Shown here: piece after piece, positions 9,592 through 57,698 of the stretch
Layout: the number at the start of each line of letters is the position of its first letter
Numbering within the stretch: position 1 is the stretch's first letter
Assembly (NCBI GenBank): GCA_937936355.1
Contig: CALDDM010000028.1
Span: 1 to 57,698 of the forward strand
From: Minisyncoccota bacterium
GTDB lineage: Bacteria > Patescibacteriota > Minisyncoccia > Moranbacterales > GCA-2747515
DNA length: 57,698 nt
Direction: 5' to 3'
Position numbers and translations under genes: made by a program
The notes under the pieces: model-generated
What the model was told of the DNA's origin: nothing
Databases searched by the model: none
What the model saw: the letters and a program-made list of their open reading frames with translations, nothing else

Positions 9592-9595
9592 ATTA

Positions 9596-9787: not shown

Positions 9788-9869
9788 GTACGTATAGGCA
9801 TGAACTGTGGATAAATAACTTTCCTGTTTAACTTGATTACTGCTAGACTAAAAGAGAATAAAAAATGTT

Positions 9870-10400: not shown

Positions 10401-10404
10401 GAAT

Positions 10405-10596
10405 ATGTTTTCAGTATTCCACATTCAAAAAATTCTCAATGAGAAATATAATATAAGTGTATCAAAAGGAATTATAAAATCTACTCTGGGATTGTTTCTA
10501 GCACTATTTATTCTTGTCTTGCTTGTGTCATGTACGGACGAAACGCTCCAAAAGTCGGACCCTAGCGTTGTCATTGATCCACCAATCGATTTATAA
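10405..10596 (+). CDS. Small single-pass membrane protein paired with pilin (cassette 2)
   Basis: 63 aa, 4 nt after the pilin stop. 'HIQKILNEKYNISV' head plus TM 'LGLFLALFILVLLV'. Confidence 0.55.
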   Translation: MFSVFHIQKILNEKYNISVSKGIIKSTLGLFLALFILVLLVSCTDETLQKSDPSVVIDPPIDL

Positions 10597-10643
10597 AGGG
10601 ATGATATTGAATTTTCGTTTGATTGAACAAATAAATTATTGAA

Positions 10644-11171
10644 ATGTTGTCTATGGGAAATAAAATAACAAAGGGCTTCACACTTATTGAGCTTCTTATT
10701 GTTATAGCGATTATTGGTATTCTTGCGAGTATTACCCTAGTTAGCCTTAATCAGGCGAGAGATAAGGCGCAGAGATCTGCTTATATCTCTACAATCAGTA
10801 GTTTGGTGCGTGGAACGCAGGTTGCGGTAAATGATGGTGCTTTTGATAGTTTGCCAACTACTGGATGGTCGTGTTTGGGGGACTATGCGGCCAGTGGGAA
10901 AAATTGTTGGGGCTCTACCTATAGCAATAACCCTACAGTAGATGCAGCAATTACGACTGTCGCATCGTTACCGCCTGGCGTCACGTCTCCAGCAAATGAT
11001 AATTATGGGGCACTGCTTCGTGTTGTGGCAGGTAGCTATGTTCGCTTCCTTGTATATGTAGGGCCTGGTAATCAAGATTTATGTGGTCAGTTTGGTTTGT
11101 TTAACAATGTTAATACGCAGCCACTATTGAGAAATGCAAATGCTTGTCAAGGATACATATCGCTTCAGTAG
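10644..11171 (+). CDS. Type IV pilin-like protein (cassette 3)
   Basis: 'ITKG|FTLIELLIVIAIIGILASITLVSLNQARDKA'. The 32-aa mature N-terminus is identical to cassette 2 but has ~16 synonymous DNA differences. Confidence 0.88.
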   Translation: MLSMGNKITKGFTLIELLIVIAIIGILASITLVSLNQARDKAQRSAYISTISSLVRGTQVAVNDGAFDSLPTTGWSCLGDYAASGKNCWGSTYSNNPTVDAAITTVASLPPGVTSPANDNYGALLRVVAGSYVRFLVYVGPGNQDLCGQFGLFNNVNTQPLLRNANACQGYISLQ

Positions 11172-11217
11172 GCTATAATAAAATGATGTCGGTGCTTTCA
11201 TTTAAATATAACATGCT

Positions 11218-11397
11218 ATGATTGCAAAACTACAAAGAGCTCTTTCTGAAAAATATAACCTTACGATCCCCCTCAAGACGCTAAAACTTATGTTGATGTT
11301 GGTATTGGGCATTTTTGTTTTAATAATCTTCTTGCCAATTGTGAGCAGTGGAGGGACTGTGAAGAACCAAGAAACTAATGTCCCTGTTCCTGAATAG
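11218..11397 (+). CDS. Small single-pass membrane protein paired with pilin (cassette 3); absent from the ORF track (59 aa)
   Basis: My own translation: MIAKLQRALSEKYNLTIPLKTLKLMLMLVLGIFVLIIFLPIVSSGGTVKNQETNVPVPE*. Same head motif and TM as the other three. Confidence 0.5.
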   Translation: MIAKLQRALSEKYNLTIPLKTLKLMLMLVLGIFVLIIFLPIVSSGGTVKNQETNVPVPE

Positions 11398-11569
11398 ATT
11401 TTTGCCGATGATTGTTATGTATTTGTGATCTCAAGTGAAGTACATTCTTAGATTTAGGATTTTATCTAAATGATCTAGATTTTTGATTGTTGCTGTGGGT
11501 CAGATTGCTCATTTGTTTGTTGTAACGTTAGTGATCAGGGTGGGGTAGATTTATATATAATAAAAGAAT

Positions 11570-12109
11570 ATGAATAATGTTTTTGTAAAAGGATTTACCT
11601 TGATTGAACTTTTAATTGTTATAGCTATTATAGGCATTCTTGCAAGTATCACTTTGGTGAGTTTAAATGAAGCTCGTGTTAAGTCAAAAAATGCTGCGTA
11701 TACATCATATGTGGCAAGTGTTACAGGTCTTGTTGAAGCTACAATTGCAGGAGGAGGTTTTGAAATCTTGCCTGCTTCACCAAGGCATGGTTGTTTGGGT
11801 GACTATGGTGGAAGGTCATGTTATGGGACAGGTACGTGGAATGCCAATGATCTAAATGTTTCAGATGGACTCAATGAAAGAATGCGACAATTTGGGGACA
11901 TACCAGAGGGTCAAAATTCACCTCATAATCAAGATCTTGGTGTTGGGATTTATTATGTCAATAGTCAGAGGTCTGTTAGGGTGTATGCATTTGGTGCTGG
12001 TGAAAATTCGGCGGAAAGAAATGTCAATTGCCAAGGTTATGGGTGGGCGAATGTTGTTAACCATTCTTCAACGAATTGTTATACAAGTATACCAATCGAC
12101 ACCAACTAA
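11570..12109 (+). CDS. Type IV pilin-like protein (cassette 4)
   Basis: 'VFVKG|FTLIELLIVIAIIGILASITLVSLNEAR'; four Cys (HGCLGDYGGRSC, NC…NC). Confidence 0.88.
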   Translation: MNNVFVKGFTLIELLIVIAIIGILASITLVSLNEARVKSKNAAYTSYVASVTGLVEATIAGGGFEILPASPRHGCLGDYGGRSCYGTGTWNANDLNVSDGLNERMRQFGDIPEGQNSPHNQDLGVGIYYVNSQRSVRVYAFGAGENSAERNVNCQGYGWANVVNHSSTNCYTSIPIDTN

Positions 12110-12361: not shown

Positions 12362-12386
12362 ATAAATCCTTTGACATCATTTGTTC

Positions 12387-12920
12387 ATGAATATTCATCA
12401 TATTGACAGAGAGAATTACGAACGTGCAACGATGTGGAGTCGTCATGCTGATTCGCGAGCCAGTATAATCCTTGCTTTTAATGCAGCTCTTGTCGCCCTT
12501 CTTGTGACGGAAAATCCTTACACACATAAGTTTTCAGAAGTTTTGCATGGACATGAGTATGCATCATGGGATGGGGCTGTTGCGTGGGGTGTGATTCTAT
12601 TTGCACTTTTCCTCTTGCTTTTTATTGCATCAAGTATCAGTGCGTTTCTTGTGTTGATGCATGATGCACGTAAGACGAGGTGCGAACATAATACAGTTTT
12701 TTCATGGATGAATATCACCGACATCTCACGAGAGGAGTATCGTCGCAAACTTTTTGGAGTGAATGATGTGCAAACAACACATGCCTGGGAGGATCAGACG
12801 TATATGGCAGCGCAGCTTGCTCGTACGAAGATGCGATGGTTGGCACGTGCGTGGATTACTCTCGCAGGAAGTATCTTGTTTAGCGTCTCTTTCGTTGTTT
12901 TAACGATCTTTTTTGTGTAA
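12387..12920 (+). CDS. Three-TM membrane protein; N-terminal region reminiscent of the DUF5706/Pycsar-effector-type TM domain (tentative)
   Basis: '…WSRHADSRASIILAFNAALVALLV' followed by two further TM helices; resemblance judged from memory of the family profile only. The ORF track starts at TTG 12381; ATG is at 12387. Confidence 0.45.
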   Translation: MNIHHIDRENYERATMWSRHADSRASIILAFNAALVALLVTENPYTHKFSEVLHGHEYASWDGAVAWGVILFALFLLLFIASSISAFLVLMHDARKTRCEHNTVFSWMNITDISREEYRRKLFGVNDVQTTHAWEDQTYMAAQLARTKMRWLARAWITLAGSILFSVSFVVLTIFFV

Positions 12921-44526: not shown

Positions 44527-46842
44527 ATGGCCACAAAAAAAACAAAAAAACAACCTCTTCATAACCTCTTGGCGGCATTCTCCCTCCTCTCTGTTGTTGT
44601 GGGAGTTTTTTTTGCAGTTCAAAAAAATGTCTGGCCTCCATCTCTTACGTTGTCTGACGCCGCTCCTGCTAGTTGTGGTGTAGACCGGATCCAATCCTTA
44701 CTTGCAAGTCCTGATCGCATGGGATTTGGTCGTAATACAACTGGTGGTGCAAAAGCAAATAGTTTTGCTGTAGTAACGACAGTAGCGGATGATGGCCCCG
44801 GTTCCTTGCGAAAAATTGTGAAAGATTATCAGAATGACAATTCACGAGACGCGCTGTGGATTACATTTGATGATAGTCTTCGTGGCAAGACGATTACTTT
44901 GCAATCTTCAATTAACTTTAACAAGGCCAATGTAACGATTGATGGTCGTGGAAATGACGGTAAGATGAATGATATTGTGATTTCACCTGCACAAACACCG
45001 AAGCCATTTGCGATGCTTCTCTTTTGGGCTGGCAATGCAATAATTCACGGTATTACACTTGATGGAAAAGGTGTACACTCTGTAGCGATGATGCTCAGGC
45101 GAGGTGATAACTACTGGCATGATCACGTTACTGTGAAGAATGTTAAAACTGATGATGCGCTATCGATTGGTCAGTGTGAGCGAACGGATTCTGCAAACCG
45201 CATCACGATATCAAATTATCATCCGCATAATACCTCAAAGGGACTTCTCGCAGGTGGCGGCGGTAGCTCGTTGAAGGACTCGTTTTGTAATACGATTTAC
45301 GGCACACTGATTAAAAGCAATATGAATGCAGATGATAGAAATCCACGAGTTGCAACAAATAATATTTGGCATCTTATTAATAATTATTCCCATGGATTTC
45401 GTTTTGGTGGGACTGATGCATTGGATTCAGGTCAAGTTCTTTCTGAGGGAAATGTGATCTCTAACGCCAATACGAAGTCTGACAGTAATTCTGGTTTTCG
45501 TGGCACAGAGCTCAGTCACCCGACTGGACATATCTACACAACAAATAACAAGAATGTCTACATGGGAAAGGTTAATGCCGGTCCTTCTGGATCAATCAAC
45601 CCGAGCAATCCTCTGTTTCCAAAGATTACCTATCCTTACACTGTGATGCCTGTTTCTCAGGTTGTTGATTATGTTACAAAGAACGCTGGCGCAGAAAATG
45701 CTAGTGGAAGCCTGCAGTACTGTAGTGGTACTTCAACACCTGTCTGTGGCAATAGTAAGCAAGAGTCCGGAGAGCAGTGTGATGATGGCAATACTAAAAA
45801 TGGTGACGGTTGTAGTGCACAGTGTACGATAGAGACAGTGACACCAACACCTGTGTGTGGTAATGCCGTGCAAGAATCAGGCGAGCAATGTGATGACGGC
45901 AACACCAAAAATGGTGATGGTTGTAGTAATGTATGTGAAAGAGAAGGTGCTGGAGGCTCTTCTCATTCCGTACCGACTATTGGAGTAGTTGATGTCTCAG
46001 GTACTAGTGCAGTTCTTCGCTATAGTGCAAATGGTAATCCTGAACGCATTCGCGTCACAGCCGGTACGGGGCTCAAGACCAATCCTGAAACAGGTACGCA
46101 AGTCTCAATTGGGGATCTCTTTGACACAGGAAAGGTTGCTATGGGAGCGATTTCCTCACCGCAGACGATCTCAGGTATTCCGAGGCAAGGGGATACATAT
46201 TTTACAGTTGCAACAGAAAAAAATGGCAAAAGTCTTCAAACAACTTACACGTACAATAGTGTGCAAGTGCATACTGTGCCTGATGTCTCTGCGGGAAATG
46301 TAAGTAATGGTGAAGTTTTTGTTGCATATACACCAAATGGTAATCCTGAACGCATTCGCGTCACAGCCGGTACGGGGCTCAAGACCAATCCTGAAACAGG
46401 TACGCAAGTCTCAACTGGGGATCTCTTTGATACGCAGAAAGTTGGCATAGGAGCACTTGCATCACCAGTTAGGATAACAGGACTGCCAAATCAAGGTATT
46501 GTACATATTACAGTTGCAACTGAGAAGAGTGGGAAGAGTCTTCAAACAACAAAAACAATTGCAATTGTCCAAGCAGTAAACTATGACGGTGTCATTAACA
46601 TATCAAAACTCAAATCTGATGGGGGATTTGCCTATAGTACGAACCAAAGATTCGACTTTAATAAAAATATTCAGATCTTTGAGGATGGCAAGGCGCTTGG
46701 TCCTTCTGGTGCGCGAAGGGATCGCATAGGGTCAAAGGGTTTAGGTCGCTATCTCTTTAAAAATGGTGTGCTTATATTCAGTGCATCTGACAACTCTGAC
46801 CCGCGAACGAATGGACGCCTGTATACTTTTAATTGGAGATAA
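44527..46842 (+). CDS. Secreted multidomain protein: pectate-lyase-like beta-helix, 2 Cys-rich (DUF4215/myxo-type) repeats, 2 tandem ~102-aa domains, C-terminal domain
   Basis: Signal anchor '[18 protein letters not shown]'. 'GFGRNTTGG…[14 protein letters not shown]…KTITLQSSI…NVTIDGRG' resembles PL1 pectate lyases. '[27 protein letters not shown]' occurs twice. Confidence 0.55.
45745..45825 (+). repeat. Cys-rich repeat copy A ([27 protein letters not shown])
   Basis: 27-aa unit. Its protein core is identical to copy B, but the DNA differs at many synonymous sites. Confidence 0.8.
45856..45936 (+). repeat. Cys-rich repeat copy B ([27 protein letters not shown])
   Basis: 111 nt downstream of copy A, in frame. 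Confidence 0.8.
45964..46269 (+). repeat. Tandem 306-bp (102-aa) domain duplication, unit 1
   Basis: Contains 46028-46124, which matches 46334-46430 at 96 of 97 nt. Confidence 0.85.
46270..46575 (+). repeat. Tandem 306-bp (102-aa) domain duplication, unit 2
   Basis: See unit 1. The flanks are diverged at both DNA and protein level. Confidence 0.85.
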
Positions 46843-48343: not shown

Positions 48344-48375
48344 AAAAAAATCTCCCTTGATGGGAGATTTTTTTA
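48344..48375. terminator. Bidirectional rho-independent terminator shared by the 47056 ORF (+) and ssrA (-)
   Basis: AAAAAAATCTCCC-TTGAT-GGGAGATTTTTTT; the A/T tracts on both sides let it work in both orientations. Confidence 0.75.
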
Positions 48376-48377
48376 TG

Positions 48378-48796
48378 TGGAGCTGATGGGAATTGCACCC
48401 ATGTCCAAATTTGTAGCATCAAATGTACTCTACATATGTAGATTCGTCTTTACGCAATGTGCAAACATCGCGGATTCAGTCCGCACCAGAAGACGATCAG
48501 AAAGCGTGTGAACCTAAATGTGATGATTGAACATATACTTGCACATTAATCGGTATATGCGAACCTCAGGTTTTTGACACCAGATCTCGCCCTATGAGGC
48601 GTCAGGTGAGCTGATGGCTTACGCGGTTTTAGGCGTAAGACGGTGCAAAAGATGGGCTGAAAGCTTTCGCTACAGCATCTTTTACTTTTGTAGTAAGAGT
48701 TGCACTTATACAAGGTGAATACACGGTTTACGTGTCCAGTATTCATGCACGATATGCATACATTTAAGTAACAAACTGTCGAAGCTAGACAGCCCC
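48378..48796 (-). ncRNA. ssrA: tmRNA (ssrA), ~419 nt
   Basis: Minus strand 5' GGGGCUGUCUAGCUUCGAC… and 3' …GGACAUGGGUGCAAUUCCCAUCAGCUCCA. The acceptor GGGGCUG/CAGCUCC has G3:U70, with a T-arm-like 3' domain. Lies directly downstream of smpB. Candidate tag ORF 48703-48629: GCA… = ATLTTKVKDAVAKAFSPSFAPSYA*. Confidence 0.85.
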
Positions 48797-48854
48797 GATC
48801 TATACCTGCAGTGGTACAGGTCGGGAACGTGTAGCCCATTACTTCTCTTTACCT

Positions 48855-49304
48855 CTATTTTCGTATGCGTAGTGCTCTTTTTACTTTTCGGTCTGATTCT
48901 CTCTTTGCGATCGATGCTCTTTTGTCATGTTTTTTCTTGCCTTTTCCGACTGCGAATTCGAGCTTGATATTGCGTCCCTTAGTATATATCCGAGTGGGAA
49001 CGAGTGTCAATCCTTCTGCTTGTCTCTTGCCGATGATGGATTTGATCTCAGATTTTTTGAGGAGGAGTTTTCGTGAACGTGTTGGCTCATAAACTGTATT
49101 GCGATTTGCATGCGTATAGAGTGGTATCAGGGCATTTGTGAGGTATACTTCATTTCCGCGGATGGCTACAAAGGCCCCTTTGAGGGAAATGTGCCCTGTC
49201 TTGATAGACTTTACTTCATGACCTAGCAATGAAATACCAGCCTCATATTTTTGTAGGAGGTCGTAATCGTAATTTGCTCGTTTGTTTGTTGCGTACGTTG
49301 CCAT
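48855..49304 (-). CDS. smpB: SsrA-binding protein SmpB
   Basis: 'NKRANYDY…YEAGI.L.G.EVKS', 'LLLKKSEI', basic C-terminal tail. Confidence 0.95.
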   Translation of the reverse strand: MATYATNKRANYDYDLLQKYEAGISLLGHEVKSIKTGHISLKGAFVAIRGNEVYLTNALIPLYTHANRNTVYEPTRSRKLLLKKSEIKSIIGKRQAEGLTLVPTRIYTKGRNIKLEFAVGKGKKKHDKRASIAKRESDRKVKRALRIRK

Positions 49305-49379: not shown

Positions 49380-50456
49380 ATGCATAGTCGACTCTTCCTC
49401 ATCGTTGCCTTTTTTTTAAGTCTGTTTTTTTGTTGTGCAGAGAATGTTTTTGCTGATTCCGCTGAGTCAGCTCGTGGGTGGATGTGGGGTGGCACGGAGG
49501 AAGTGACTGGTGGCACTAGTGAAGATACTACTGGATTGGGATGGATCAGTCTCAATAGCTCAAATTGTGATGCTGACAATGATGGGCAAAGTGATGGTGC
49601 GACAGGATGTCCCGCACTTGGTGAGACTGTTGCGGACTATGGTGTTTTTGTTCCTGAGTCTGATGGTGATGTCATTGGTTATGCGTGGAGTGAGAATGTC
49701 GGATGGATTAGTTTTCAACCAACTGATCTCGTTGGATGTCCACAAGCTCCATGTAGCGCTTATCGACTCGACGATGAAATTTACGGATGGGCACGAATTG
49801 TCTCGATCCGTAGCGCTCTTGGTCAGAGCAATGCCGGGGGTTATGAAGGGTGGATTAAGTTACATTCTGAGAGCGGTGATCCTGTAACGTATGGCTTAAG
49901 TATCGATGCGTTAGGTGCGCCCAATACGATTGATGGATACGCATGGAGTGATGAATTTGGGTGGATCCGCGCTGTTAATGTAACTGTAGAGACGAGTGAG
50001 TCGCTCATTGTTTGCCCAAATGCCTCTACAATAACAATTGGTGGCATATTACAATTACGCGCATATTATCGACCTGGAGGTCGTATCCTGAGTTGTGGGG
50101 AGGTGCTTGTGAGTGACCTTGATGTAACGGGAAGTTCGACATGGTCATCAAATGATGTTGCAATTACAACAGTTGACGCTTCTACTGGTATTGTCACTGG
50201 TGTCAGTACCGGTGGACCAGCTGTTATTACGGCTTCTTATCTTGCTGATAGTGCAATTGCGCTTGTGAGTGTTAATGCTATTAGCACTGCGTGTGGTGAT
50301 GGTGTGATCGGTGCGGGAGAGTCATGTGATCAAGGGGCGGCAAGCAATGGTTCATGTGTGACGGGTGTGCCATATGACCATGATAGTGATGCTAGTACAT
50401 TAGATGTTACATGCGGTAGCTCATGTCAAATCAATGTTTGTCAGTGTGTTATATAG
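49380..50456 (+). CDS. Secreted GW-repeat protein with Big_2-like Ig domain and Cys-rich C-terminus
   Basis: Signal peptide 'LFLIVAFFLSLFFCCAENVFA'. Repeats 'GLGWISL', 'GYAWSENVGWISF', 'GYEGWIKL', 'GYAWSDEFGWIRA'. 'SSTWSSNDVAITTVDASTGIVTGVSTGGPAVITASY' is Big_2-like. C-terminal 'CGDGVIGAGESCDQG…'. Confidence 0.55.
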   Translation: MHSRLFLIVAFFLSLFFCCAENVFADSAESARGWMWGGTEEVTGGTSEDTTGLGWISLNSSNCDADNDGQSDGATGCPALGETVADYGVFVPESDGDVIGYAWSENVGWISFQPTDLVGCPQAPCSAYRLDDEIYGWARIVSIRSALGQSNAGGYEGWIKLHSESGDPVTYGLSIDALGAPNTIDGYAWSDEFGWIRAVNVTVETSESLIVCPNASTITIGGILQLRAYYRPGGRILSCGEVLVSDLDVTGSSTWSSNDVAITTVDASTGIVTGVSTGGPAVITASYLADSAIALVSVNAISTACGDGVIGAGESCDQGAASNGSCVTGVPYDHDSDASTLDVTCGSSCQINVCQCVI

Positions 50457-50755: not shown

Positions 50756-53700
50756 ATGGATTTTCCCCGCAAAACAAAAAAAATACATTTTATCGTAATT
50801 GCAGTTTTTCTTGCGGCTTCTTTTGGTGGTTGGGAATCAGCGCATACTTTTGTGGAACCGTCTAGTACGCCGCCTAATGGCAATGTAGGTGCTCCAGTGA
50901 CGATACAGTCACCTGGACAGACGAAAGCAGGTTCTCTTACTGTAAATACTGACGGTGTTGCTTCGGAGGGACTGGTTGTTGATAAGGGTGAGTTTGAAGT
51001 GCGTGATGGAGAATCAAGTTTTTCTAATGGTACATATAGTGACCCTGATAGCGGTAATTCTTATGATGCAAAATTTGGTGGCTCTAACCGTGGTGTTGCT
51101 GTTCGGGGTACAAGTGTTTTCTTGGGTCCGGTAGGCATTGTCGATACGACTCCTGACGGCACGCTTAGTCTAGATGTTGACGGTGAAATTGGTGCGCAGA
51201 GCTATTGTGATGAAGATGGATCTAATTGTTATACTGTGCTAGAGCTTCTAAATGGGGGTGCAGGTAGTATTGATAGTCTCTCAGATGGTGTGAGTGATGA
51301 GACGACTAATGTCTTTCTTGGGACTGGCGCAGGCGCTGGAGATACCACAGCAGCATATAATAATACAAGTCTAGGTATCGATGCGCTGAATGCTAATGCA
51401 TCGGGTAGCTCAAATACTGCCCTTGGATTTCGCTCACTTTATCGGAATACGTCTGGCTCTAATTCTGTCGCAATTGGTTACAATGCACTTCGGGAAAATC
51501 TAACAGTGAGTAGTAGCACAGCTGTTGGTGCTAGTGCACTGCGCTCCAATACAACAGGCTATGGTAACGTTGCTGTAGGGTTTGCCTCGCTATACAAGAC
51601 AACGTCAGGCGGTGGCAATACAAGTGTTGGCACAGCGTCTCTCTATGAAAATCTCTCTGGCGCAAGTAATACCGCGGTTGGTGGTAATACATTGCGAGAT
51701 AATGTTACTGGTAATCGCAATGTCGCCGTTGGTGAAAATGCACTTCGACTGGTAACGCAGGGGAGTGATAATGCTACGCTTGGCTATCGTGCTGGCTACA
51801 ATGTAACAACATCCAATAATAACACGTTTATCGGTGCGTATGCTGGTGATGATGTAACGTCGGGTGCTCGCAACATCTCTATCGGATATGGGAGTGAAGT
51901 GGCGAATCCTACAGCAAGTGATCAGCTTTCCATTGGTAATTTTATCTACGGAACCGGTTTGAATGGTTATGATACTGCTATCTCGCCTGGACGGATCGGT
52001 CTGGGCACCAAGACTCCTGAGCAACAGTTAGATGTGTCGGCTCCCGGGTACGCAGGACTTCGTGTAGGTACTTCGTCAAATAGTGGTAACAATGCTTTTA
52101 TAGAGATTGAAGGTGCTCGCACAACAAGCACTACGGAGAATATTTCATCTGTGCGATTTAACAATAATGATGCCGGTGCCGACTATGAGGGTGCGCGTAT
52201 TGCAATTCGTAACTCGGATGCTGTGAGTGGTACTGCTAACACAGATTTGGTTGTTTCAACAAACAACAATACTGGACCCCAACAGGCGATGCTCATTGAC
52301 GATCAAGGAAATGTGGCGATTGGTCCTACGGCTGATCCCCAGGCAAAGCTTGATGTGATTGGCGATATCGTTTCTCGTAATGGTGGCAATGAGATTGTGC
52401 GGATTAATAATACAGATGATTTCACAGCGGAGCCAGATATTCAGATTTTTACAGATGGTGGTGTTGCTGCTGAAGGTGACTTGAATTTGAATATTGATTC
52501 GGACAGTGATGAAGTTGATCGTGCGCTCAAGATCAATAGTAATGGTAATAATGCCTCAGCTACAGAACTTGCACGCTTTAACGAAGATGGAACGGTGGGT
52601 ATAGGTGATGCGACTCCGGATGGTACGCTTAAGTTGGATGTGGAGGGGCAAATAGGTGCGACCGAATATTGTGACGAGAACGGAGCGAATTGTGTCCCAG
52701 CAGGAAGTACGGCTGCGACGAACTTTCTTGCTCTCACAGACACGCCAGCAACATCCACTGCAGGTTCTATATATTTTGGTGACGGCACGAATGTGGCAGA
52801 AGACAATGCGAATCTTTTTTGGGATGATGTGAATAATAGGTTGGGTATAGGAAAAAGCGCGCCAGGGGTAACGCTTGATATCGATGGAACGACTGCGATT
52901 GCCGGCGGAGACTTTAATTACTTTTTTGCTAATACGGGAGCTGGTAGTGTTCAAATCCCTTACCGTATGAAAGCAAACGATGGCGTAGGTAATTTTCATG
53001 TCTACATCAACACAAATGGTGGTGCTTCTCCAATATATGATTCTAATGGCTTTGCATATCATGAAGTTTACAATCCTGCCGATGGCCAGTATCGCGTTCA
53101 GACTGCCGTTAGCGGTACGCAGGGTACACCTTTAACCTGGCAAGATGCTTTTACTGTTGCGGGTAATGCTACGGTTGGTGTAGGTGACACCACACCCGAT
53201 GGATCTCTCAAGTTAGATGTGCAGGGACAAGTAGGTGCTACTGAGTATTGTGATGAGAATGGTGCAAATTGTACGCCTGCAGGCAGTCTCAGTGGTTCCG
53301 ATACATTCCTGGGCCTCACAGATACGCCAGCAACATCCACCGCAGGGTCGATTTATTTTGGTGACGGGTTAAATGTGGCAGAGGATAATGCAAATCTTTT
53401 CTATGATGACACGAATAATCGTTTGGGTCTTGGAACGACGTTGCCTGAGGCGCGCTTACAACTAGGTGATGGTGCTGCGCAAGCAAACAATTATATAGCC
53501 TTTGGTAAGCGACTTGCAGCATCTCAAGTTAATCTGCCCTTCATTGGACAGGACTCTGTCGATGGTGTGGAAAATGGTATAGGTATTGGTGCAAGCTCCT
53601 CTAATGGAGGTGTCAATTTCTATGCAGGAAGTGCGACAGCTTTTAATCCGGCTAATTTACGTATGCGTATTGATCCAGATGGCGATGTGGGCATTGGAGA

Positions 53701-56700
53701 CGTCACTCCAAATACCGGACTCAAGCTTGATGTTGAGGGTCGTGTCGGTGCGACAGAGTATTGTGATGAGAATGGCGCAAATTGTGTGCTTGCGACCAAT
53801 CTTGGTGCTGATGGTGACGCGTGGGGTGTAGATGGTGAGGATCAAGCATCAGACGTTGAGCGTGCCGGTTTTGTCGGTATTGGAGCACAAGCTACTGGGG
53901 GTGCGTCCAATAGTGTTTTAAATCTTGATCATCATTTTGCACTTGATGCTACGACGAGACAAGTTTATTCAAATACTACTGCTACATCACCGCCTTTGAC
54001 TGCTGACAGAACCACATATGGTGCTCAATATAATATTCTCAACAATAAGACGGAGTCAGGTACAAATGATTCGGATGCAAATGCTGTTTATGGTTTTGTA
54101 GAGACAAATGGAACGAATACTTTTCGCACGAATCGTGGTGTCAGTGGTGTCAGCTATAACAATTCTACAGCTGCAACAGGGTTAGGAATTCCTATTGGTG
54201 TGCAAGGAAATGCTCGTCAACTTGCAAACTCAGGTAATATCGGAAATGTGTATGGTGTGTATGGAACGGCTGCTGGTGATACGACAGCTGGGACAACAAG
54301 TTCTGTGTCAAATCTGTATAGCGTATACGGATTTGCTACGCCATATCGATCGTCTGCATCTAATGTCCGAGGTGTTTATGGTCTTGCGCAGACATCCAAT
54401 ACTTATGAAGGGGATATCGATAATGCTTATGGTGTTGTGGGAACTGTTCGTGTTGATAGTGATGATGGTGGTGATATCACGACTGGATTTGGGGGATACT
54501 TTTCGACTAATCGTCGTTCGACTGCAAATCTGATGGGTACAGCTTATGGGGTCTACTCTAATGTAGATGATGCGACGACAGCATATGGCGCAGTGCTTCT
54601 TGCCAATGATGCTGATGCGACGACAAATGTGGCGCTACAGCTTGATGGTGCGCTTGCTTCAGGGTCAAACTATGGCATTTTGGGTCAGCGCGGTGATTGG
54701 GTATTGGATGAGGATGGTGATGGCAATGTCGCTGGCACAGGTCCTGGAGGCGATTTAGTTTTGGGTGAGGGACAAGATTTCCGCCTGTGGCATGATGGGG
54801 TTAATTCCTATATGCGTAATGAGGTAGGTGATCTTTATATTACAGATAATGGTGCTGATAATGTCTTACTCTCAACGAATGGTGGTGATGTCGGTATTGG
54901 TGACACTACGCCTGACGCTACGCTCAAACTGGATGTGGAAGGGCAGATTGGAGCGACGGAGTATTGTGATGAGAACGGATTAAATTGTATACCAGCAGGG
55001 ACTCTTGGTGGTGCTACAACCTTCCTTGGTCTTACGGATACGCCAGCAACATCCACCGCAGGGTCGATTTATTTTGGAGATGGTGTCAATGTTTCAGAGA
55101 ATAATGCTAGTCTTTTTTGGGATAATGTCAATAATCGATTAGGTCTGGGCACAGCCACTCCGGAGCGAGATCTTGACATTGCTGGACTCACACCATTTCT
55201 TCGACTCACAAGTACAGATACTGGAAACCATGTTTTAGACGATGAGTTTAGCGGTATTGAGTTCTACACTGAGGATCCTGATCACCCTAACCAGCCAGGT
55301 GTTTCAGGCTATATTAAGTCAGTGCATACGCGCGCGGGTGCATCGCACGCATATGCAGATGCAGGTCTTACATTTGGAACGCAAAATTCATCGGGAGCAG
55401 CGCAGGAACGTCTGCGAATTACACATGATGGTAAAGTGGGTATTGGTGACACTACACCAAATAGTTCACTTTTGTTGGATGTTGAGGGTCGTGTCGGTGC
55501 GACAGAGTATTGTGATCAAAATGGTGCAAACTGTCGTGTGGTTACTGATCTCTCTCAGGTTCAAGTAATAAACGATCTGGGTGATGCAAAGACAAATGGT
55601 AATAGTGTATTTCTTGGTGATAATGCCGGTAACCTTGATGATGGTGCTAATCAAAACACTGCTGTTGGTGCTGCAGCTATGGATGCGGTTGTGTCTGGTC
55701 TTTATAATTCTGCTTTTGGTTATGGTGCCCTCACGACCGCTACTGGTAACTCCAATACTGCAGTAGGTCGATTGGCGCTCCGCTATACAACAACTGGTAC
55801 AAACAACTCGGCTTTGGGTCGTGATGCTCTGGAACAAAACACGACTGGTGGCTCTAATTCCGCACTTGGCATGCAAGCGCTACATAGTAATACAGAAGGA
55901 TCAAGTAATGTGGGTATAGGACGCAACTCTATGTTTGCAAATACCACGGGTATACAGAACGTTGGTGTTGGTGCTTATGTGTTGGATGCTAATGTTACTG
56001 GATTTAATAATACAGCTGTAGGCTATGCTGCGCTTGGTGCATCAACTGGTACTGGGAATGTAGGCATTGGTCAGGGTACTGGTGATCAGTTGACCGCAGG
56101 TAATTACAATGTTGCGATTGGGTATCGATCGCAGGTAGCTAGTTCAACGGGAAGTAACCAGCTAAGTATAGGAAATATTATCTATGGCACGGCGATTGAT
56201 GGTACGGGAACAAGTATTTCTACAGGAAATGTCGGTATTGGCATAAAGTCTCCATCGGCTAAGCTCGATGTTGCAGGCACTTCAACTAATGCAACAGCTC
56301 TACGACTACGCGCAGGTGATGTTGCTAGTCAGAGCGATTCGAGTCAGATTGTCATGGCTTTTAATGCCTCAGAAAATTACTCTCATGCCATTAAGACGCG
56401 ACATAATGCTTCAGCAGTTGAAAATAATGCGATTGATCTTTTTGTATGGGATCAAGGAGTTGATGCAGCAGCAACCGTTGGCACGAAGAAGGTTGCAACC
56501 TTTGACGCGCGACATGATGGAGCGGTAGGAATTGGCACGGATCAACCAGTGACAAACTTGGACGTAGATGGTGGCGTTGCATTTGCTACGAGGACAATCG
56601 CTGCTGCAACAACGATCACGACAGGTGACAATATGATCTTGTGTAATGCTGGTAATGTTAATCGTACTTTGACTCTTCCAACTGCAGCGTCTGCTCCGGG

Positions 56701-56860
56701 CTTTGAGGTCACGGTAAAGAAGATCAATACGACAGCGGGTAATTGTATTATCGATGGTAGTGGCGCTGAACTTATCGATGGTGCTGCTACACTTACGATC
56801 TCTGATAGTTACGATGCGTATACTGTGATGTCGGATGGCACGAGCTGGTGGGTTAAATAA
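50756..56860 (+). CDS. Giant (~2030 aa) membrane-anchored fibre/adhesin-like repeat protein
   Basis: Anchor 'IHFIVIAVFLAASFGGW'. Two YadA-head/tail-fibre-like blocks ('NTALG…NTAVG…'), six 33-aa CX6C modules, many '(V/L)GIGxxxPxxxLDVxG' motifs, and a C-terminal ~90-aa domain ending 'SDGTSWWVK'. Start moved from 50642 to ATG 50756. Confidence 0.8.
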   Translation: MDFPRKTKKIHFIVIAVFLAASFGGWESAHTFVEPSSTPPNGNVGAPVTIQSPGQTKAGSLTVNTDGVASEGLVVDKGEFEVRDGESSFSNGTYSDPDSGNSYDAKFGGSNRGVAVRGTSVFLGPVGIVDTTPDGTLSLDVDGEIGAQSYCDEDGSNCYTVLELLNGGAGSIDSLSDGVSDETTNVFLGTGAGAGDTTAAYNNTSLGIDALNANASGSSNTALGFRSLYRNTSGSNSVAIGYNALRENLTVSSSTAVGASALRSNTTGYGNVAVGFASLYKTTSGGGNTSVGTASLYENLSGASNTAVGGNTLRDNVTGNRNVAVGENALRLVTQGSDNATLGYRAGYNVTTSNNNTFIGAYAGDDVTSGARNISIGYGSEVANPTASDQLSIGNFIYGTGLNGYDTAISPGRIGLGTKTPEQQLDVSAPGYAGLRVGTSSNSGNNAFIEIEGARTTSTTENISSVRFNNNDAGADYEGARIAIRNSDAVSGTANTDLVVSTNNNTGPQQAMLIDDQGNVAIGPTADPQAKLDVIGDIVSRNGGNEIVRINNTDDFTAEPDIQIFTDGGVAAEGDLNLNIDSDSDEVDRALKINSNGNNASATELARFNEDGTVGIGDATPDGTLKLDVEGQIGATEYCDENGANCVPAGSTAATNFLALTDTPATSTAGSIYFGDGTNVAEDNANLFWDDVNNRLGIGKSAPGVTLDIDGTTAIAGGDFNYFFANTGAGSVQIPYRMKANDGVGNFHVYINTNGGASPIYDSNGFAYHEVYNPADGQYRVQTAVSGTQGTPLTWQDAFTVAGNATVGVGDTTPDGSLKLDVQGQVGATEYCDENGANCTPAGSLSGSDTFLGLTDTPATSTAGSIYFGDGLNVAEDNANLFYDDTNNRLGLGTTLPEARLQLGDGAAQANNYIAFGKRLAASQVNLPFIGQDSVDGVENGIGIGASSSNGGVNFYAGSATAFNPANLRMRIDPDGDVGIGDVTPNTGLKLDVEGRVGATEYCDENGANCVLATNLGADGDAWGVDGEDQASDVERAGFVGIGAQATGGASNSVLNLDHHFALDATTRQVYSNTTATSPPLTADRTTYGAQYNILNNKTESGTNDSDANAVYGFVETNGTNTFRTNRGVSGVSYNNSTAATGLGIPIGVQGNARQLANSGNIGNVYGVYGTAAGDTTAGTTSSVSNLYSVYGFATPYRSSASNVRGVYGLAQTSNTYEGDIDNAYGVVGTVRVDSDDGGDITTGFGGYFSTNRRSTANLMGTAYGVYSNVDDATTAYGAVLLANDADATTNVALQLDGALASGSNYGILGQRGDWVLDEDGDGNVAGTGPGGDLVLGEGQDFRLWHDGVNSYMRNEVGDLYITDNGADNVLLSTNGGDVGIGDTTPDATLKLDVEGQIGATEYCDENGLNCIPAGTLGGATTFLGLTDTPATSTAGSIYFGDGVNVSENNASLFWDNVNNRLGLGTATPERDLDIAGLTPFLRLTSTDTGNHVLDDEFSGIEFYTEDPDHPNQPGVSGYIKSVHTRAGASHAYADAGLTFGTQNSSGAAQERLRITHDGKVGIGDTTPNSSLLLDVEGRVGATEYCDQNGANCRVVTDLSQVQVINDLGDAKTNGNSVFLGDNAGNLDDGANQNTAVGAAAMDAVVSGLYNSAFGYGALTTATGNSNTAVGRLALRYTTTGTNNSALGRDALEQNTTGGSNSALGMQALHSNTEGSSNVGIGRNSMFANTTGIQNVGVGAYVLDANVTGFNNTAVGYAALGASTGTGNVGIGQGTGDQLTAGNYNVAIGYRSQVASSTGSNQLSIGNIIYGTAIDGTGTSISTGNVGIGIKSPSAKLDVAGTSTNATALRLRAGDVASQSDSSQIVMAFNASENYSHAIKTRHNASAVENNAIDLFVWDQGVDAAATVGTKKVATFDARHDGAVGIGTDQPVTNLDVDGGVAFATRTIAAATTITTGDNMILCNAGNVNRTLTLPTAASAPGFEVTVKKINTTAGNCIIDGSGAELIDGAATLTISDSYDAYTVMSDGTSWWVK
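51131..51229 (+). repeat. 33-aa CX6C module, copy 1 (VGIVDTTPDGTLSLDVDGEIGAQSYCDEDGSNC)
   Basis: Most divergent copy. Confidence 0.8.
51272..52039 (+). repeat. YadA-head/tail-fibre-like block, copy 1
   Basis: 'DSLSDGVSDETTNVFLG…(NTxxG/ALxxN repeats)…DQLSIGNFIYGTGL…IGLGTKTPEQQLDVS'; collinear with 55568-56278. Confidence 0.7.
52595..52693 (+). repeat. 33-aa CX6C module, copy 2 (VGIGDATPDGTLKLDVEGQIGATEYCDENGANC)
   Basis: Followed by the 'FLALTDTPATSTAGSIYFGDG…NNRLGIG' extension. Confidence 0.9.
53174..53272 (+). repeat. 33-aa CX6C module, copy 3 (VGVGDTTPDGSLKLDVQGQVGATEYCDENGANC)
   Basis: Followed by the 'FLGLTDTPATSTAGSIYFGDG…' extension. 53321-53361 is identical to 55037-55077 (41 nt). 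Confidence 0.9.
53687..53785 (+). repeat. 33-aa CX6C module, copy 4 (VGIGDVTPNTGLKLDVEGRVGATEYCDENGANC)
   Basis: No TDTP extension. Confidence 0.9.
54890..54988 (+). repeat. 33-aa CX6C module, copy 5 (VGIGDTTPDATLKLDVEGQIGATEYCDENGLNC)
   Basis: Followed by the 'FLGLTDTPATSTAGSIYFGDG…' extension. Confidence 0.9.
55436..55534 (+). repeat. 33-aa CX6C module, copy 6 (VGIGDTTPNSSLLLDVEGRVGATEYCDQNGANC)
   Basis: Immediately precedes the second YadA-like block. Confidence 0.9.
55568..56278 (+). repeat. YadA-head/tail-fibre-like block, copy 2
   Basis: 'INDLGDAKTNGNSVFLG…NQLSIGNIIYGTAI…VGIGIKSPSAKLDVAG'. Confidence 0.7.
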
Positions 56861-56882
56861 GTTTGTACCCTCGGATATATAC

Positions 56883-57698
56883 ATGAAAACAAGCAATCAC
56901 AAAAGAAGAATTACGCGAGCTCTGTGGGTATGTGCTAGCTTTTTCGTTTTTGTGCCGTCTGCGACGTATGTCTCATCGACATATATCGTCGAAGACCCTA
57001 ATGACCATACTTTGGATGGTGTGACGACAAATGGTAATACTACAACCAATGATATTGGCACGGGATCTTTTACGATTGGTGCGACAGAGAAACTTCTTTT
57101 CTCTAATTACACTTCTACAAATGATCATATACAGCTTTGGTGGGCTGGCGCTGCTGCGGGTTACGGCATTGGTGTTGAAGGCGGCACTGTATACAATCGC
57201 GCTGCTGGTCAACATCGGTGGTACATTGCTGAGATTGCAAGTGGTGGTACGACGGAGAATATGGAGCTTGATGTTGATAGTCTTAATTTTAATAATAAGG
57301 AAGCGATTCGGTATAGCGATGCGTGGCTTAGATTCAATCAGGCATCAGGATTTGCAAATGGTACGCACACTCCTTTGCTTTTGCGTGCTGACGGTGGATT
57401 CCAAGTAGATGGGAAGCAAGTTATTGATTCTTCTGGTGCGGTCCATGAGGCACACTATCCAAATGCCACACGCTACGGATACTTTGCAGCACATAATGGA
57501 TCAGCTGCTCGCGGCATGTACCTTGGCTGGGGCAATGGTGCTAGTACTGTTGATCTCAATCTCGATGCGGCAAGTATTCTCAATATAACTGGTGGTGATG
57601 TCGGTATCGGAGATTCAACACCGGACGGATCATTGGTATTGGATGTGGAAGGCCAAGTTGGTGCGACAGAGTACTGTGATGAGAATGGTGCGAATTGT
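56883..57698 (+). CDS. Second fibre-like protein, 5' part only (runs off the window end); not in the ORF track
   Basis: My own translation: ATG 56883, 272 codons without a stop to the last base. Signal anchor 'ALWVCASFFVFVPSATYV'. Ends in a seventh CX6C module. Confidence 0.75.
   Translation, partial: MKTSNHKRRITRALWVCASFFVFVPSATYVSSTYIVEDPNDHTLDGVTTNGNTTTNDIGTGSFTIGATEKLLFSNYTSTNDHIQLWWAGAAAGYGIGVEGGTVYNRAAGQHRWYIAEIASGGTTENMELDVDSLNFNNKEAIRYSDAWLRFNQASGFANGTHTPLLLRADGGFQVDGKQVIDSSGAVHEAHYPNATRYGYFAAHNGSAARGMYLGWGNGASTVDLNLDAASILNITGGDVGIGDSTPDGSLVLDVEGQVGATEYCDENGANC
57600..57698 (+). repeat. 33-aa CX6C module, copy 7 (VGIGDSTPDGSLVLDVEGQVGATEYCDENGANC)
   Basis: The window terminates exactly on the final Cys codon of the module. 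Confidence 0.9.

What the first reader, a model, noticed from the sequence alone, without database searches (positions are those of the whole stretch)
50756..57698. Giant fibre-like surface proteins built around a recurring 33-aa CX6C module
There are seven copies of a 99-nt module, consensus VGIGD(T/A/S/V)TP(D/N)xxLxLDV(E/D/Q)G(Q/E/R)(I/V)GA(T/Q)(E/S)YCD(E/Q)(N/D)G(A/S/L)NC. Six lie in the ~2030-aa ORF (51131, 52595, 53174, 53687, 54890, 55436) and one in the following ORF (57600). Modules 2, 3 and 5 are extended by a conserved ~45-aa segment 'FLxLTDTPATSTAGSIYFGDGxNVxExNAxLFWDxxNNRLGxG', and 53321-53361 equals 55037-55077 over 41 nt. Shorter, degenerate '(V/L)GIGxxxPxxxLDVxG' motifs occur roughly a dozen more times. 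Two ~240-aa YadA-head/tail-fibre-like blocks (51272-52039 and 55568-56278) bracket the protein. The architecture suggests a long, probably oligomeric fibre in which each CX6C module caps or initiates a structural segment. In an episymbiotic CPR cell, that would be a plausible host-attachment organelle. From memory, the VGIG…LDVxG motif recalls phage tail-fibre-like proteins. I cannot assign the invariant 'GATEYCDENGANC' loop to any family.
Basis: partly seen in the sequence, partly recalled or inferred. Interest (0 to 1): 0.7.

Follow-up and report, generated by a model that had tools for sequence, protein, structure and literature searches.

The report
Cysteine-stapled joints in a bacterial surface fibre
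A 2034-residue protein of a probable ultra-small (CPR/Paceibacteria) bacterium is a phage-tail-fibre-like surface fibre of a known kind, and its recurring 33-residue module is an undescribed two-cysteine variant of that kind's segment-capping motif, marking the points where fibre segments and tips are exchanged.

Summary
Seven 99-nt modules sit exactly where stated, against 0 expected by chance. Half of the codons that encode the same residue differ synonymously, so the copies are old and kept by selection on the protein, not an assembly artefact.

ORF1 (50756-56860) is a chromosomal, N-terminally anchored, non-S74 member of the tail-fibre-like beta-helical fibre superfamily. The best-studied members are the Bdellovibrio MAT fibres. 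A profile of the stalk units hits Bd2133, Bd1334 and Bd3182 (E 3e-25 to 3.5e-13), and Foldseek ranks the same structures first.

The module's first half (VGIGDxTPDGxL) corresponds to the published MAT/S74 capping loop. Its conserved core, LxLDVxGx[IV]GAxxYCDxxGxNC, has no hit for ORF1/ORF2 in Pfam, NCBIfam or PDB sequences. It is nevertheless widespread: 853 protein clusters at E<=1e-10, up to 11 copies per protein. Named loci are mostly Patescibacteria; named proteins are all "hypothetical".

AlphaFold places the two cysteines at the base of a short hairpin, followed by a low-confidence linker. What follows the module differs between proteins. Four contigs of one metagenome are about 100% identical through the module, then unrelated.

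Best reading: a disulfide-stapled terminator/joint between rigid fibre segments, and a tip-swapping boundary. The disulfide, the trimer and host binding are inferred.

The parts
50756..56860 (+). ORF1: 2034-aa fibre protein, a non-S74 member of the tail-fibre-like / MAT-type superfamily
   Evidence: ORF and translation. 1285 homologs, mostly giant 'tail fiber domain-containing' proteins. Profile and fold matches to Bdellovibrio MAT fibres. No Pfam or NCBIfam hit.
50756..50830 (+). N-terminal signal peptide or membrane anchor (MDFPRKTKKIHFIVIAVFLAASFGG)
   Evidence: Read directly from the sequence: basic residues followed by a hydrophobic stretch. Whether it is cleaved was not tested.
50831..51130 (+). 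Conserved N-terminal domain with the motif (V/T)EPxxxPPxGNxxAPxxxxxxxQxKxGxL
   Evidence: 61-74% identical to the N-termini of P0006, P0142 and P0156. The same motif heads small module-bearing proteins.
51131..51229 (+). CX6C module 1 (most divergent copy: VGIVD...SYCDEDGSNC)
51272..52039 (+). 17-residue-period repeat block A (GxxNTAxGxxALxxNTT)
   Evidence: Self-similarity. PHROGs virion structural / tail spike families, E 1e-37 to 3e-50. AF2 places one strand every 17 residues. Matches viral fibre models. No significant PDB match.
51995..52042 (+). Generic cap motif without cysteines (IGLGTKTPEQQLDVSA). Further copies at 52841-52888, 53423-53470, 55139-55186, 56231-56278 and 56525-56572.
   Evidence: Regex scan. 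The same motif aligns to the capping loops of 8ond, 8oml and 8ojn and to the published consensus.
52595..52693 (+). CX6C module 2
   Evidence: The AF2 block means for model residues 161-210, which contain module 2 (175-207), are 79-91.
52694..52903 (+). TDTP extension after module 2, ending in a generic cap motif
   Evidence: phrog_5906 matches this extension type in 3 stretches (best 1434-1477, the copy after module 5; whole-protein E 2e-10).
53174..53272 (+). CX6C module 3
53273..53485 (+). TDTP extension after module 3. Contains the 41-nt stretch identical to 55037-55077.
53687..53785 (+). CX6C module 4
53786..54889 (+). Central 368-aa segment with YGVYG-type repeats, between modules 4 and 5
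   Evidence: Only 6 domain hits in 5 of the 270 collected relatives, and none in the four closest relatives. Fold not determined.
54890..54988 (+). CX6C module 5
54989..55195 (+). TDTP extension after module 5
55436..55534 (+). CX6C module 6
55568..56278 (+). 17-residue-period repeat block B
56579..56860 (+). C-terminal 93-aa domain with 2 Cys: candidate distal tip
   Evidence: Only two relatives in the collected set, P0085 and P0154. No family hit. A binding role is inferred from its position only.
56883..57698 (+). ORF2 (partial, 272 aa seen): a second fibre gene with its own N-terminal anchor, a 'tail fibre distal subunit'-like domain and module 7
   Evidence: phrog_11011, E 3e-6. The same domain is fused inside the fibres P0006 (67%) and L006 (58%) between two modules.
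57600..57698 (+). CX6C module 7, cut by the window end

Best explanation
ORF1, and the partial ORF2, encode cell-surface fibres of a probable Paceibacteria (CPR) bacterium. They belong to the tail-fibre-like beta-helical fibre superfamily, exemplified by the Bdellovibrio 'mosaic adhesive trimer' (MAT) proteins and by phage S74-type fibres. ORF1 is of the non-S74 type.

The fibre is a chain of rigid beta-rich segments. Each 33-aa module has three parts:
- the family's capping loop (VGIGDxTPDGxL);
- the last strand of a segment (LxLDVxG);
- a short hairpin (x[IV]GAxxY-C-DxxGxN-C) whose two invariant cysteines sit at its base and most likely form an intrachain disulfide.

The module therefore terminates and locks one rigid segment. 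It hands over, through a short Gly/Ala/Pro linker, to whatever comes next: another stalk unit, a 17-residue repeat block, or a tip domain. Because it is a self-contained end-piece, it also serves as the boundary at which segments and tips are exchanged between fibre genes.

**Shown:** family membership of the stalk units, the module's conservation pattern, its junction position and the tip swapping.

**Inferred:** trimeric state, the disulfide, surface display and binding to a host cell.
For: **Family membership**
- A profile of stalk units plus module hits the PDB sequences of Bd2133 (E 3e-25), Bd1334 (5e-14), Bd3182 (3.5e-13) and Bd2439 (1e-6). The alignment runs through ERMRIxxxGNVGIGTxxPxxxLxVxG.
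- Foldseek of the AF2 model ranks the same four fibres first, E 4e-6 to 7e-4, probability 1.0.
- The published capping-loop consensus V-G-G/N-pi-x-x-P-x-x-x-L and the S74/non-S74 split are in PMC10769870.
- The closest homolog, P0006, ends in Peptidase_S74.

**The module as a conserved unit**
- 318 distinct copies in 129 proteins give the core L-x-L-D-V-x-G-x-[IV]-G-A-x-x-Y-C-D-x-x-G-x-N-C. Both Cys and one Gly are 100% conserved, G+4 99%, D+1 96%.
- Wherever the upstream context matches, both Cys are present and the spacing is always 6 (253 of 253).

**Structure**
- AF2 block-mean pLDDT is 79-91 across the blocks containing the module.
- Strands E-Y-C and C-V-P flank the DENGAN loop.
- Confidence drops to 52-58 in the linker that follows.

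**Junction role**
- Sequence downstream of 261 modules is heterogeneous.
- Relatives share the N-terminal domain but carry module-delimited segments in different orders. The ORF2 domain lies inside P0006 and P0142 between two modules.
- Four contigs of one metagenome are 97-100% identical in DNA through the module, then fall to 23-33% within about 20 nt.

**Cellular, not phage**
- tmRNA, SmpB, ComEC, DnaE and aminoacyl-tRNA synthetases lie upstream.
- P0006 lies between rpoBC and ftsK/recA.

**Extracytoplasmic disulfides are plausible here**
- Neighbouring secreted proteins are Cys-rich (DUF4215).
Against: - The AF2 models are monomers of moderate quality (mean pLDDT 67.7 and 65.3). I could not read coordinates, so the S-S distance was not measured.
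- Foldseek TM-scores are low (0.2-0.5), even though its probabilities are 1.0.
- The always-paired cysteine count comes from proteins retrieved with a profile that contained both Cys, so it is biased.
- Many CPR bacteria live in anoxic water, where extracellular disulfides are less certain. The cysteine pair could instead bind a metal or cross-link chains.
- No experiment shows surface display, trimerisation or host binding for any CPR member.
- How the fibre is retained on the cell is unknown. ORF1 ends in a 93-aa domain with no family hit and no S74 domain; C-terminal sorting signals were not specifically searched for.
Confidence: 0.65

Rival explanations
1. The cysteine pairs act between chains or through a metal. 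In a trimer, the six cysteines at each module would form interchain disulfides, a covalent staple comparable to the cystine knots at collagen junctions. Alternatively, together with the invariant Asp and Asn, they would coordinate a metal ion on the three-fold axis, as His clusters do in T4-type fibres.
For: - Both Cys, D+1 and N+6 are nearly invariant.
- The family is trimeric and intertwined in solved members.
- About half of module-bearing proteins lack the S74 trimerisation chaperone, so another trimer lock would be useful.
- The collagen and T4 comparisons come from my own knowledge and were not tested.
Against: - The monomer model puts the two Cys of one chain at the base of the same hairpin. 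That is the usual geometry for an intrachain bond.
- The N-G at loop positions 3-4 is a classic tight-turn sequence.
- The module occurs equally with and without S74 (58 versus 68 proteins), so it does not look like a replacement for it.
Confidence: 0.2
2. The genes are phage or prophage tail-fibre genes carried in the chromosome, so the fibre is a virion part rather than a cellular organelle.
For: - PHROGs matches to 'virion structural protein', 'tail spike protein' and 'long tail fiber distal subunit'.
- Viral predicted structures match the 17-residue block.
- Two IMG/VR contigs carry looser versions of the module.
- A tmRNA gene lies 2 kb upstream.
Against: - Of the ~35 larger ORFs scanned in the 50 kb upstream, those with family hits were housekeeping, pilin or secreted-protein genes. 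No integrase, capsid, terminase or tail-tube family appeared.
- Both ORFs begin with a signal/anchor sequence, which tail fibres lack.
- Orthologs sit next to rpoBC, ftsK and recA and are syntenic with a neighbouring secreted-protein gene.
- The exact loop pattern is absent from 2.9 million viral contigs.
- The module plus extension finds nothing in 50,697 phage genomes.
- The fibre genes lie on the 5' side of the tmRNA gene, not at its 3' end.
Confidence: 0.05
3. It is a trimeric autotransporter adhesin (YadA family), as the 'YadA-head' label implies.
For: - The repeat GxxNTAxGxxALxxNTT resembles YadA head repeats by eye.
- One relative, P0090, scores with Pfam YadA_head.
- JGI names some homologs 'trimeric autotransporter adhesin'.
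Against: - ORF1 has no Pfam hit to YadA_head, stalk or anchor at E<=1.
- The C-terminus is a small soluble-looking domain, not a beta-barrel anchor.
- Foldseek of the repeat block finds no YadA structure and nothing below E 0.3 in the PDB.
- Retention is expected at the N-terminus.
- From general knowledge, Patescibacteria lack the outer membrane that an autotransporter needs.
Confidence: 0.03
4. The repeat organisation is an assembly artefact: paralogous fibre genes collapsed or chimerically joined at the conserved modules.
For: - In another metagenome, contigs break about 125 nt before a shared module, so such modules can confuse assemblers.
- A 41-nt exact repeat exists in the window.
- The window ends inside a module.
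Against: - Within the window, module copies are only 63-81% identical in DNA, and half of the conserved codons differ synonymously.
- The longest exact repeat is 41 nt, and no tandem array is present.
- The reading frame is open for 6.1 kb.
- Independent relatives (P0006, P0142, P0125-P0133) have the same multi-module layout.
Confidence: 0.05

Closest known systems
Bdellovibrio bacteriovorus MAT (mosaic adhesive trimer) fibres, non-S74 subgroup (Bd2133, Bd1334; Caulton et al. 2024, PMC10769870)
   Same: - Signal peptide followed by a conserved N-terminal domain.
- A long stalk of beta-helical units, each closed by the ERMRIxxxGNVGIGTxxPxxxLxVxG capping motif.
- Mosaic, swappable distal domains, and family members both with and without an S74 chaperone.
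- Chromosomal genes of a bacterium that lives on other bacteria.
- Sequence profile and fold matches.
   Different: - The solved MAT fragments match through the cysteine-free cap motif only; whether MAT proteins carry a CX6C hairpin was not checked directly.
- ORF1 is about twice as long and is punctuated by six such modules.
- Its N-terminal domain carries a different motif (PPxGNxxAPxN...QxKxG), and homology to the MAT N-domain was not tested.
- The organism is probably a monoderm CPR bacterium rather than a Gram-negative predator.
- Trimerisation and surface display are unproven here.
Phage tail fibres and tailspikes with a C-terminal Peptidase_S74 intramolecular chaperone (K1F endosialidase, T5 L-shaped fibre pb1)
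   Same: - The same stalk architecture and capping loops.
- Most whole-protein homologs, including the nearest one, end in PF13884.
- PHROGs tail-spike and virion families match the 17-residue blocks.
   Different: - ORF1 has no S74 domain.
- It has an N-terminal secretion/anchor signal and a housekeeping gene neighbourhood.
- The exact loop is absent from the viral collections searched.
Trimeric autotransporter adhesins (YadA, Hia, BadA)
   Same: - Long repetitive fibrous adhesins with short Gly/Asn-rich head-like repeats.
- Some database pipelines give homologs this name.
   Different: - No YadA_head or anchor match.
- No structural match.
- No C-terminal membrane barrel.
Giant-virus and chlorovirus fibre proteins (e.g. 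Bodo saltans virus 'FhaB-like adhesion protein')
   Same: The 17-residue repeat block superposes on their predicted structures over about 220 residues, at 26-38% identity, rmsd 2.5-5 A, E down to 2e-9.
   Different: - These are predicted models only.
- The match covers the repeat block. Whether these viral proteins carry the CX6C module was not checked.

Membership tests
MAT / tail-fibre-like beta-helical fibre superfamily (Caulton 2024) | Stalk of beta-helical units closed by the capping-loop motif V-G-G/N-pi-x-x-P-x-x-x-L | tested here: met
   The profile of ORF1 440-720 and relatives hits 8ond (3e-25), 8oml (5e-14), 8ojn (3.5e-13) and 8ol4 (1e-6), aligned through GNVGIGTxxPxxxLxV. Foldseek ranks the same entries first. 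The window motif has one more residue between G and P than the published consensus.
MAT / tail-fibre-like beta-helical fibre superfamily (Caulton 2024) | Signal peptide followed by a conserved beta-rich N-terminal domain of ~130 aa | tested here: inconclusive
   An N-terminal hydrophobic signal and a ~100-aa domain conserved among relatives (61-74%) are present. Homology to the Bdellovibrio N-domain was not tested, because no solved structure or sequence of it was to hand.
MAT / tail-fibre-like beta-helical fibre superfamily (Caulton 2024) | Intertwined homotrimer | not testable with these tools
   Only monomer AlphaFold2 was available.
MAT / tail-fibre-like beta-helical fibre superfamily (Caulton 2024) | Variable C-terminal tip: an S74 chaperone or another domain | tested here: met
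   ORF1 ends in a 93-aa non-S74 domain. Relatives carry S74 (P0006) or unrelated tips.
MAT / tail-fibre-like beta-helical fibre superfamily (Caulton 2024) | Displayed on the cell surface and binds the partner or prey cell | not testable with these tools
   Requires proteomics, microscopy or binding assays.
Peptidase_S74 (PF13884) intramolecular-chaperone fibres | C-terminal S74 domain with the SDxxxK catalytic motif | tested here: not met
   No Pfam hit at E<=1. A local HMM built from P0006's S74 region does not hit ORF1.
Trimeric autotransporter adhesins (YadA family) | YadA_head repeats (PF05658) | tested here: not met
   No Pfam hit for ORF1. No YadA structure appears among the Foldseek matches for the repeat block.
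Trimeric autotransporter adhesins (YadA family) | C-terminal YadA_anchor beta-barrel | tested here: not met
   No Pfam hit. The C-terminus is a 93-aa domain ending in ...DGTSWWVK.
Phage tail fibre (virion component) | Encoded within a phage or prophage structural gene cluster | tested here: not met
   The upstream 50 kb is housekeeping, pilin and secreted-protein genes. The ortholog context is rpoBC / ftsK / recA. Sequence downstream of the window is unknown.
Phage tail fibre (virion component) | Sequence similarity to phage fibre or spike families | tested here: met
   phrog_6002 (3e-50), phrog_23837 (6e-42), phrog_4636 (5e-37), and phrog_11011 for ORF2. These matches cover the 17-residue blocks and the ORF2 domain, not the CX6C core.

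The most novel reading that the evidence does not exclude
The CX6C module is a dedicated, portable 'fibre joint' that has not been described. It would be a redox- or metal-locked end-cap that lets CPR and other cell-associated bacteria build host-recognition fibres from interchangeable cassettes, and swap receptor-binding tips immediately after the second cysteine. On this reading the module defines the exchange points of a host-range diversification system in episymbionts.
Probability: 0.3. Interest if true: 0.65.

Novelty: new variant of a known kind. Interest (0 to 1): 0.45.

Why it matters
How ultra-small episymbiotic bacteria recognise and hold on to their hosts is largely unknown. So far only type IV pili have experimental support, according to the abstracts returned.

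This work shows that a probable Paceibacteria genome encodes MAT-type fibres, the class that Bdellovibrio uses to recognise prey. It also defines a sharply conserved 22-residue core that marks segment ends in hundreds of such proteins.

That core gives three practical handles:
- a sequence signature for finding these fibres, which databases currently call 'hypothetical';
- rational construct boundaries for structural work and for tip-binding assays;
- a specific, cheap biochemical prediction to test, namely a paired-cysteine lock.

The tip-swapping seen directly after the module suggests where host-range variation is generated. The protein class itself is already known, so this is an incremental advance rather than a new kind of system.

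Tried and rejected
**Searches that found nothing**
- Pfam (E<=1), NCBIfam and PDB sequence searches with ORF1 and ORF2 gave no hits.
- The word-indexed homolog search performed poorly on short queries. Module plus extension gave only 4 short proteins and missed even the window's own protein. The module alignment gave none. Both counts are artefacts of the index. The exhaustive profile search superseded them.
- tblastn of module plus extension against 50,697 phage genomes found no match.
- Tandem Repeats Finder found no arrays.
- Literature searches found nothing on this module or on MAT-type fibres in Patescibacteria.

**Ideas tested and not supported**
- YadA-head identity of the 17-residue blocks. 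Foldseek against the PDB gave only generic beta-solenoids at E>0.3.
- That the CX6C hairpin is a cysteine version of the 'xFPDGTxQ' hairpin that ends the Bd2133 helix. That motif follows a cap in only 1 of 1535 cases in my set, so the idea remains speculation.
- That the module replaces the S74 chaperone. It co-occurs with S74 about as often as not.

**Left undone**
- I considered modelling the C-terminal tip, but only two relatives were available. I used the second structure job on module 1 plus repeat block A instead.


Full report
**1. The observation**

ORF1 runs from an ATG at 50756 to the stop at 56860 and encodes 2034 aa. ORF2 starts at 56883 and is cut by the window end after 272 aa. 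The repeat finder returns seven in-register 99-nt copies at 51131, 52595, 53174, 53687, 54890, 55436 and 57600.

A degenerate DNA pattern for GAxxYCDxxGxNC matches only these seven places in the whole window, on either strand. None of 100 shuffles gave any match. Twelve of ORF1's 14 cysteines are the six CX6C pairs.

Modules 2, 3 and 5 are each followed by a 64-70-aa extension, TDTPATSTAGSIYFGDG...LFWDxxNNRLGxG. The 41-nt identity between 53321 and 55037 is exact.

Copies are 63-81% identical in DNA and 61-91% in protein. On average half of the codons that encode the same residue use a different synonymous codon. The repeats are therefore old, and it is the protein sequence that selection keeps. 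The longest exact repeat is 41 nt, no tandem array is present, and the frame is open for 6.1 kb. An assembly chimera is unlikely, although only long reads could exclude it.

**2. Genomic setting**

The window is cellular. It carries SecE, NusG, L1, nucleotide-metabolism genes, GatB, GluRS, ThrRS, CysRS, DnaE, ComEC, two tRNAs, and tmRNA with SmpB directly upstream of the fibre genes. None of the roughly 35 ORFs I scanned matched a phage structural or integration family.

The nearest GTDB locus, L006 (a Candidatus Paceibacterota MAG), has three features in common with the window:
- an ORF1 ortholog, 53% identical over 443 aa;
- a homolog of the window's 358-aa secreted protein immediately upstream of it;
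- the ORF2 domain, there fused inside the fibre.

The closest database homolog, P0006, lies between rpoBC and ftsK/recA. These are chromosomal genes of a bacterium that is probably a member of the Paceibacteria.

**3. What the protein is**

A whole-protein search gives 1285 homologs. Most are 1500-3500 aa and end in Peptidase_S74 (PF13884). Where named, they are called 'tail fiber domain-containing protein', in Limnobacter, Patescibacteria, Bacteroidia and others. ORF1 itself has no Pfam, NCBIfam or PDB sequence hit.

PHROGs families for virion structural and tail-spike proteins match the two 17-residue-period blocks, E 5e-37 to 3e-50.

I modelled ORF1 440-720 with a 44-sequence alignment (A2). 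Mean pLDDT was 67.7, with block means of 79-91 across the module. The top six Foldseek hits in the PDB are all Bdellovibrio MAT fibres: Bd1334 (8oml), Bd2133 (8ond) and Bd3182 (8onc), E 4e-6 to 7e-4, probability 1.0. Bd2439 and phage T5/DT57C fibres follow more weakly.

The profile of the same alignment hits the sequences of 8ond (3e-25), 8oml (5e-14), 8ojn (3.5e-13) and 8ol4 (1e-6), and weakly MyRF (0.5). The alignments run through 'ERMRIDxSGNVGIGTxxPxxxLxVxG'.

Caulton et al. (PMC10769870) describe exactly this element. They report 'capping loops' on the edges of intertwined trimeric beta-helices, with consensus V-G-G/N-pi-x-x-P-x-x-x-L. These loops are shared by S74 and non-S74 fibres and by MyRF. 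The generic VGIG...LDV motif is therefore already described, and ORF1 is a non-S74 member of this superfamily.

The 17-residue blocks gave a model with one strand every 17 residues and pLDDT 70-84. It has no significant PDB match and no YadA hit. It does superpose on predicted viral fibre proteins, including Bodo saltans virus, chloroviruses and uncultured phages with S74 domains, at E down to 2e-9. 'Tail-fibre-like' holds. 'YadA-head' does not.

**4. What the module is**

An exhaustive profile search with 19 module copies against 1.84 billion representative proteins found 7408 proteins at E<=1e-3, 853 at <=1e-10 and 56 at <=1e-30. Of the 149 sequences I could inspect, 131 carry the two-cysteine element, with up to 11 copies in one protein. 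The rest score through many cysteine-free caps.

From 318 distinct copies in 129 proteins, the conserved core is L-x-L-D-V-x-G-x-[IV]-G-A-x-x-Y-C-D-x-x-G-x-N-C. Conservation is as follows:
- both Cys and the Gly at -8: 100%;
- Gly +4: 99%;
- Asp +1: 96%;
- Ala -4: 95%;
- Asn +6: 86%.

The upstream VGIGDxTPDG part is much less conserved. Wherever the upstream strand context is present, both positions are Cys and the spacing is always six (253 of 253). This count is biased by how the set was collected.

The exact peptide EYCDENGANC, back-translated, occurs as follows:
- 6 loci among the genomes of 185,579 GTDB species. Four are labelled Patescibacteria (including Paceibacteria and Gracilibacteria), one is an Alphaproteobacteria MAG and one is an unclassified 'bacterium'.
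- 9 loci among 241 million metagenome records.
- None among 2.9 million viral contigs.

A looser pattern finds two viral contigs. Members that carry a name are all 'hypothetical protein', from Peregrinibacteria, Parcubacteria and Alphaproteobacteria MAGs. The CX6C core is thus a real, widespread and uncurated element.

**5. How it probably works**

In the model, the strands E-Y-C and C-V-P pair with each other, with DENGAN as the connecting loop. Confidence then falls to 52-58 over the next ~30 residues. The two cysteines therefore sit at the base of a short hairpin, the usual geometry for an intrachain disulfide. The near-invariant Gly, commonly preceded by Asn or Asp, fits a tight turn.

After the second Cys, the commonest continuation is a Gly/Ala-rich stretch. 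Beyond that, the 261 downstream sequences are heterogeneous: stalk units, lead-ins to 17-residue blocks, small Cys-rich C-terminal domains, and the TDTP extension, which occurs only in ORF1 and P0006.

Relatives keep the N-terminal domain, module 1 and block A, but arrange the later module-delimited segments differently:
- The ORF2 domain lies between two modules inside P0006 and P0142.
- Segments C, D, E, F and the C-terminal domain of ORF1 have no counterpart in those four closest relatives.

The clearest case comes from metagenome Ga0209575. Four contigs are 97-100% identical in DNA for about 165 nt up to and through the module. They then drop to 23-33% identity within about 20 nt of the second Cys, continuing into unrelated 73-110-aa Cys-rich tips. 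Two of the contigs begin about 125 nt before the motif, as expected if the assembler broke at a shared segment.

I conclude that the module is the end-piece of a rigid segment. It consists of the cap loop, the last strand and a cysteine-locked hairpin, followed by a linker. This makes it the natural boundary for cassette and tip exchange. About half of module-bearing proteins also have S74 (58 versus 68), so the module does not stand in for that chaperone.

Neighbouring secreted proteins in the window are Cys-rich. This suggests the organism does make extracytoplasmic disulfides.

The following remain inference: the disulfide itself, as opposed to interchain bonds or a metal site; the trimer; surface display; and host binding.

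**6. Comparison and verdict**

The protein is a new member of a known kind, the MAT / S74-type tail-fibre-like fibres. The module is a new variant of that kind's capping junction. The YadA label does not. The module is not peculiar to this locus.

Interest is moderate. The finding gives a searchable signature and testable construct boundaries for candidate host-recognition fibres of CPR bacteria, and it points to where tip diversity is generated.

Noticed in passing
window 9067-12109 (+): Four tandem ~175-aa ORFs (9067-9591, 9870-10400, 10644-11171, 11570-12109) each carry the type IV pilin N-terminal methylation motif (PF07963). This is a pilin paralog array in the same window as the fibre genes.
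   Followed up: no
window 12381-12920 (+): A 179-aa ORF next to the pilin array matches PycTM, the Pycsar effector transmembrane domain, only just above the Pfam cut-off (28.1 versus 27.2 bits).
   Followed up: no
window 49380-50456 (+) and 44527-46842 (+): Two secreted Cys-rich proteins lie upstream of the fibre genes. The 358-aa one has no family hit but has homologs directly upstream of the fibre ortholog in L006, and in L013. The 771-aa one carries two DUF4215 Cys-rich repeats.
   Followed up: partly
L008 515-970, L009 1-456, L015 1-456, L013 (reverse strand), all from metagenome Ga0209575: The contigs share ~100% DNA identity through the CX6C module, then continue into unrelated small Cys-rich C-terminal domains. 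L009 and L015 start ~125 nt before the motif. This looks like a polymorphic tip set on a common stalk.
   Followed up: partly
window 50843-50929 (ORF1 aa 30-58); L008 112-891; P0002, P0127, P0134, P0151, P0156, P0171, P0177, P0243: An N-terminal motif directly follows the signal sequence: (A)W(V/T)EPTxxPPxGNxxAPxNxGxxxQxKxG. Giant fibres and 170-260-aa 'mini-fibres' (signal, motif, short stalk, module, tip) both have it. It has no Pfam model.
   Followed up: partly
P0169, P0183, P0210, P0244 and others; window has none: A sister variant of the module, KLDVAG(I/T)IRA(T/E)(D/Q)ICDETGANCKDISTGW, recurs in other giant proteins. It has Ile/Arg in place of Gly/Tyr, the same CX6C spacing, and a conserved KDISxGW tail.
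   Followed up: no
L002 (Alphaproteobacteria MAG OFTM95), P0130 (6785 aa, Alphaproteobacteria MAG), P0090 (contig of 1.68 Mb): Module-bearing giant proteins also occur outside Patescibacteria. The lifestyle of these Alphaproteobacteria is unknown.
   Followed up: no
L017 (IMGVR_UViG_3300008002_000719) and L018 (IMGVR_UViG_3300022707_002252): Two contigs classed as viral encode looser versions of the module (…NYCDANGANC…, …DYCDEAGANC…). In L017 a Cys-rich C-terminal domain follows.
   Followed up: no
window 48375-49304 (-): The tmRNA gene (tag ATLTTKVKDAVAKAFSPSFAPSYA) lies directly beside smpB on the same strand, 1.4 kb upstream of ORF1.
   Followed up: no
window 53786-54889 (ORF1 aa 1011-1378): A 368-aa segment between modules 4 and 5 has irregular (A/V)YG(V/L)(Y/V)G repeats. 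It has almost no relatives among the 270 collected proteins. Its fold and role are unknown.
   Followed up: no
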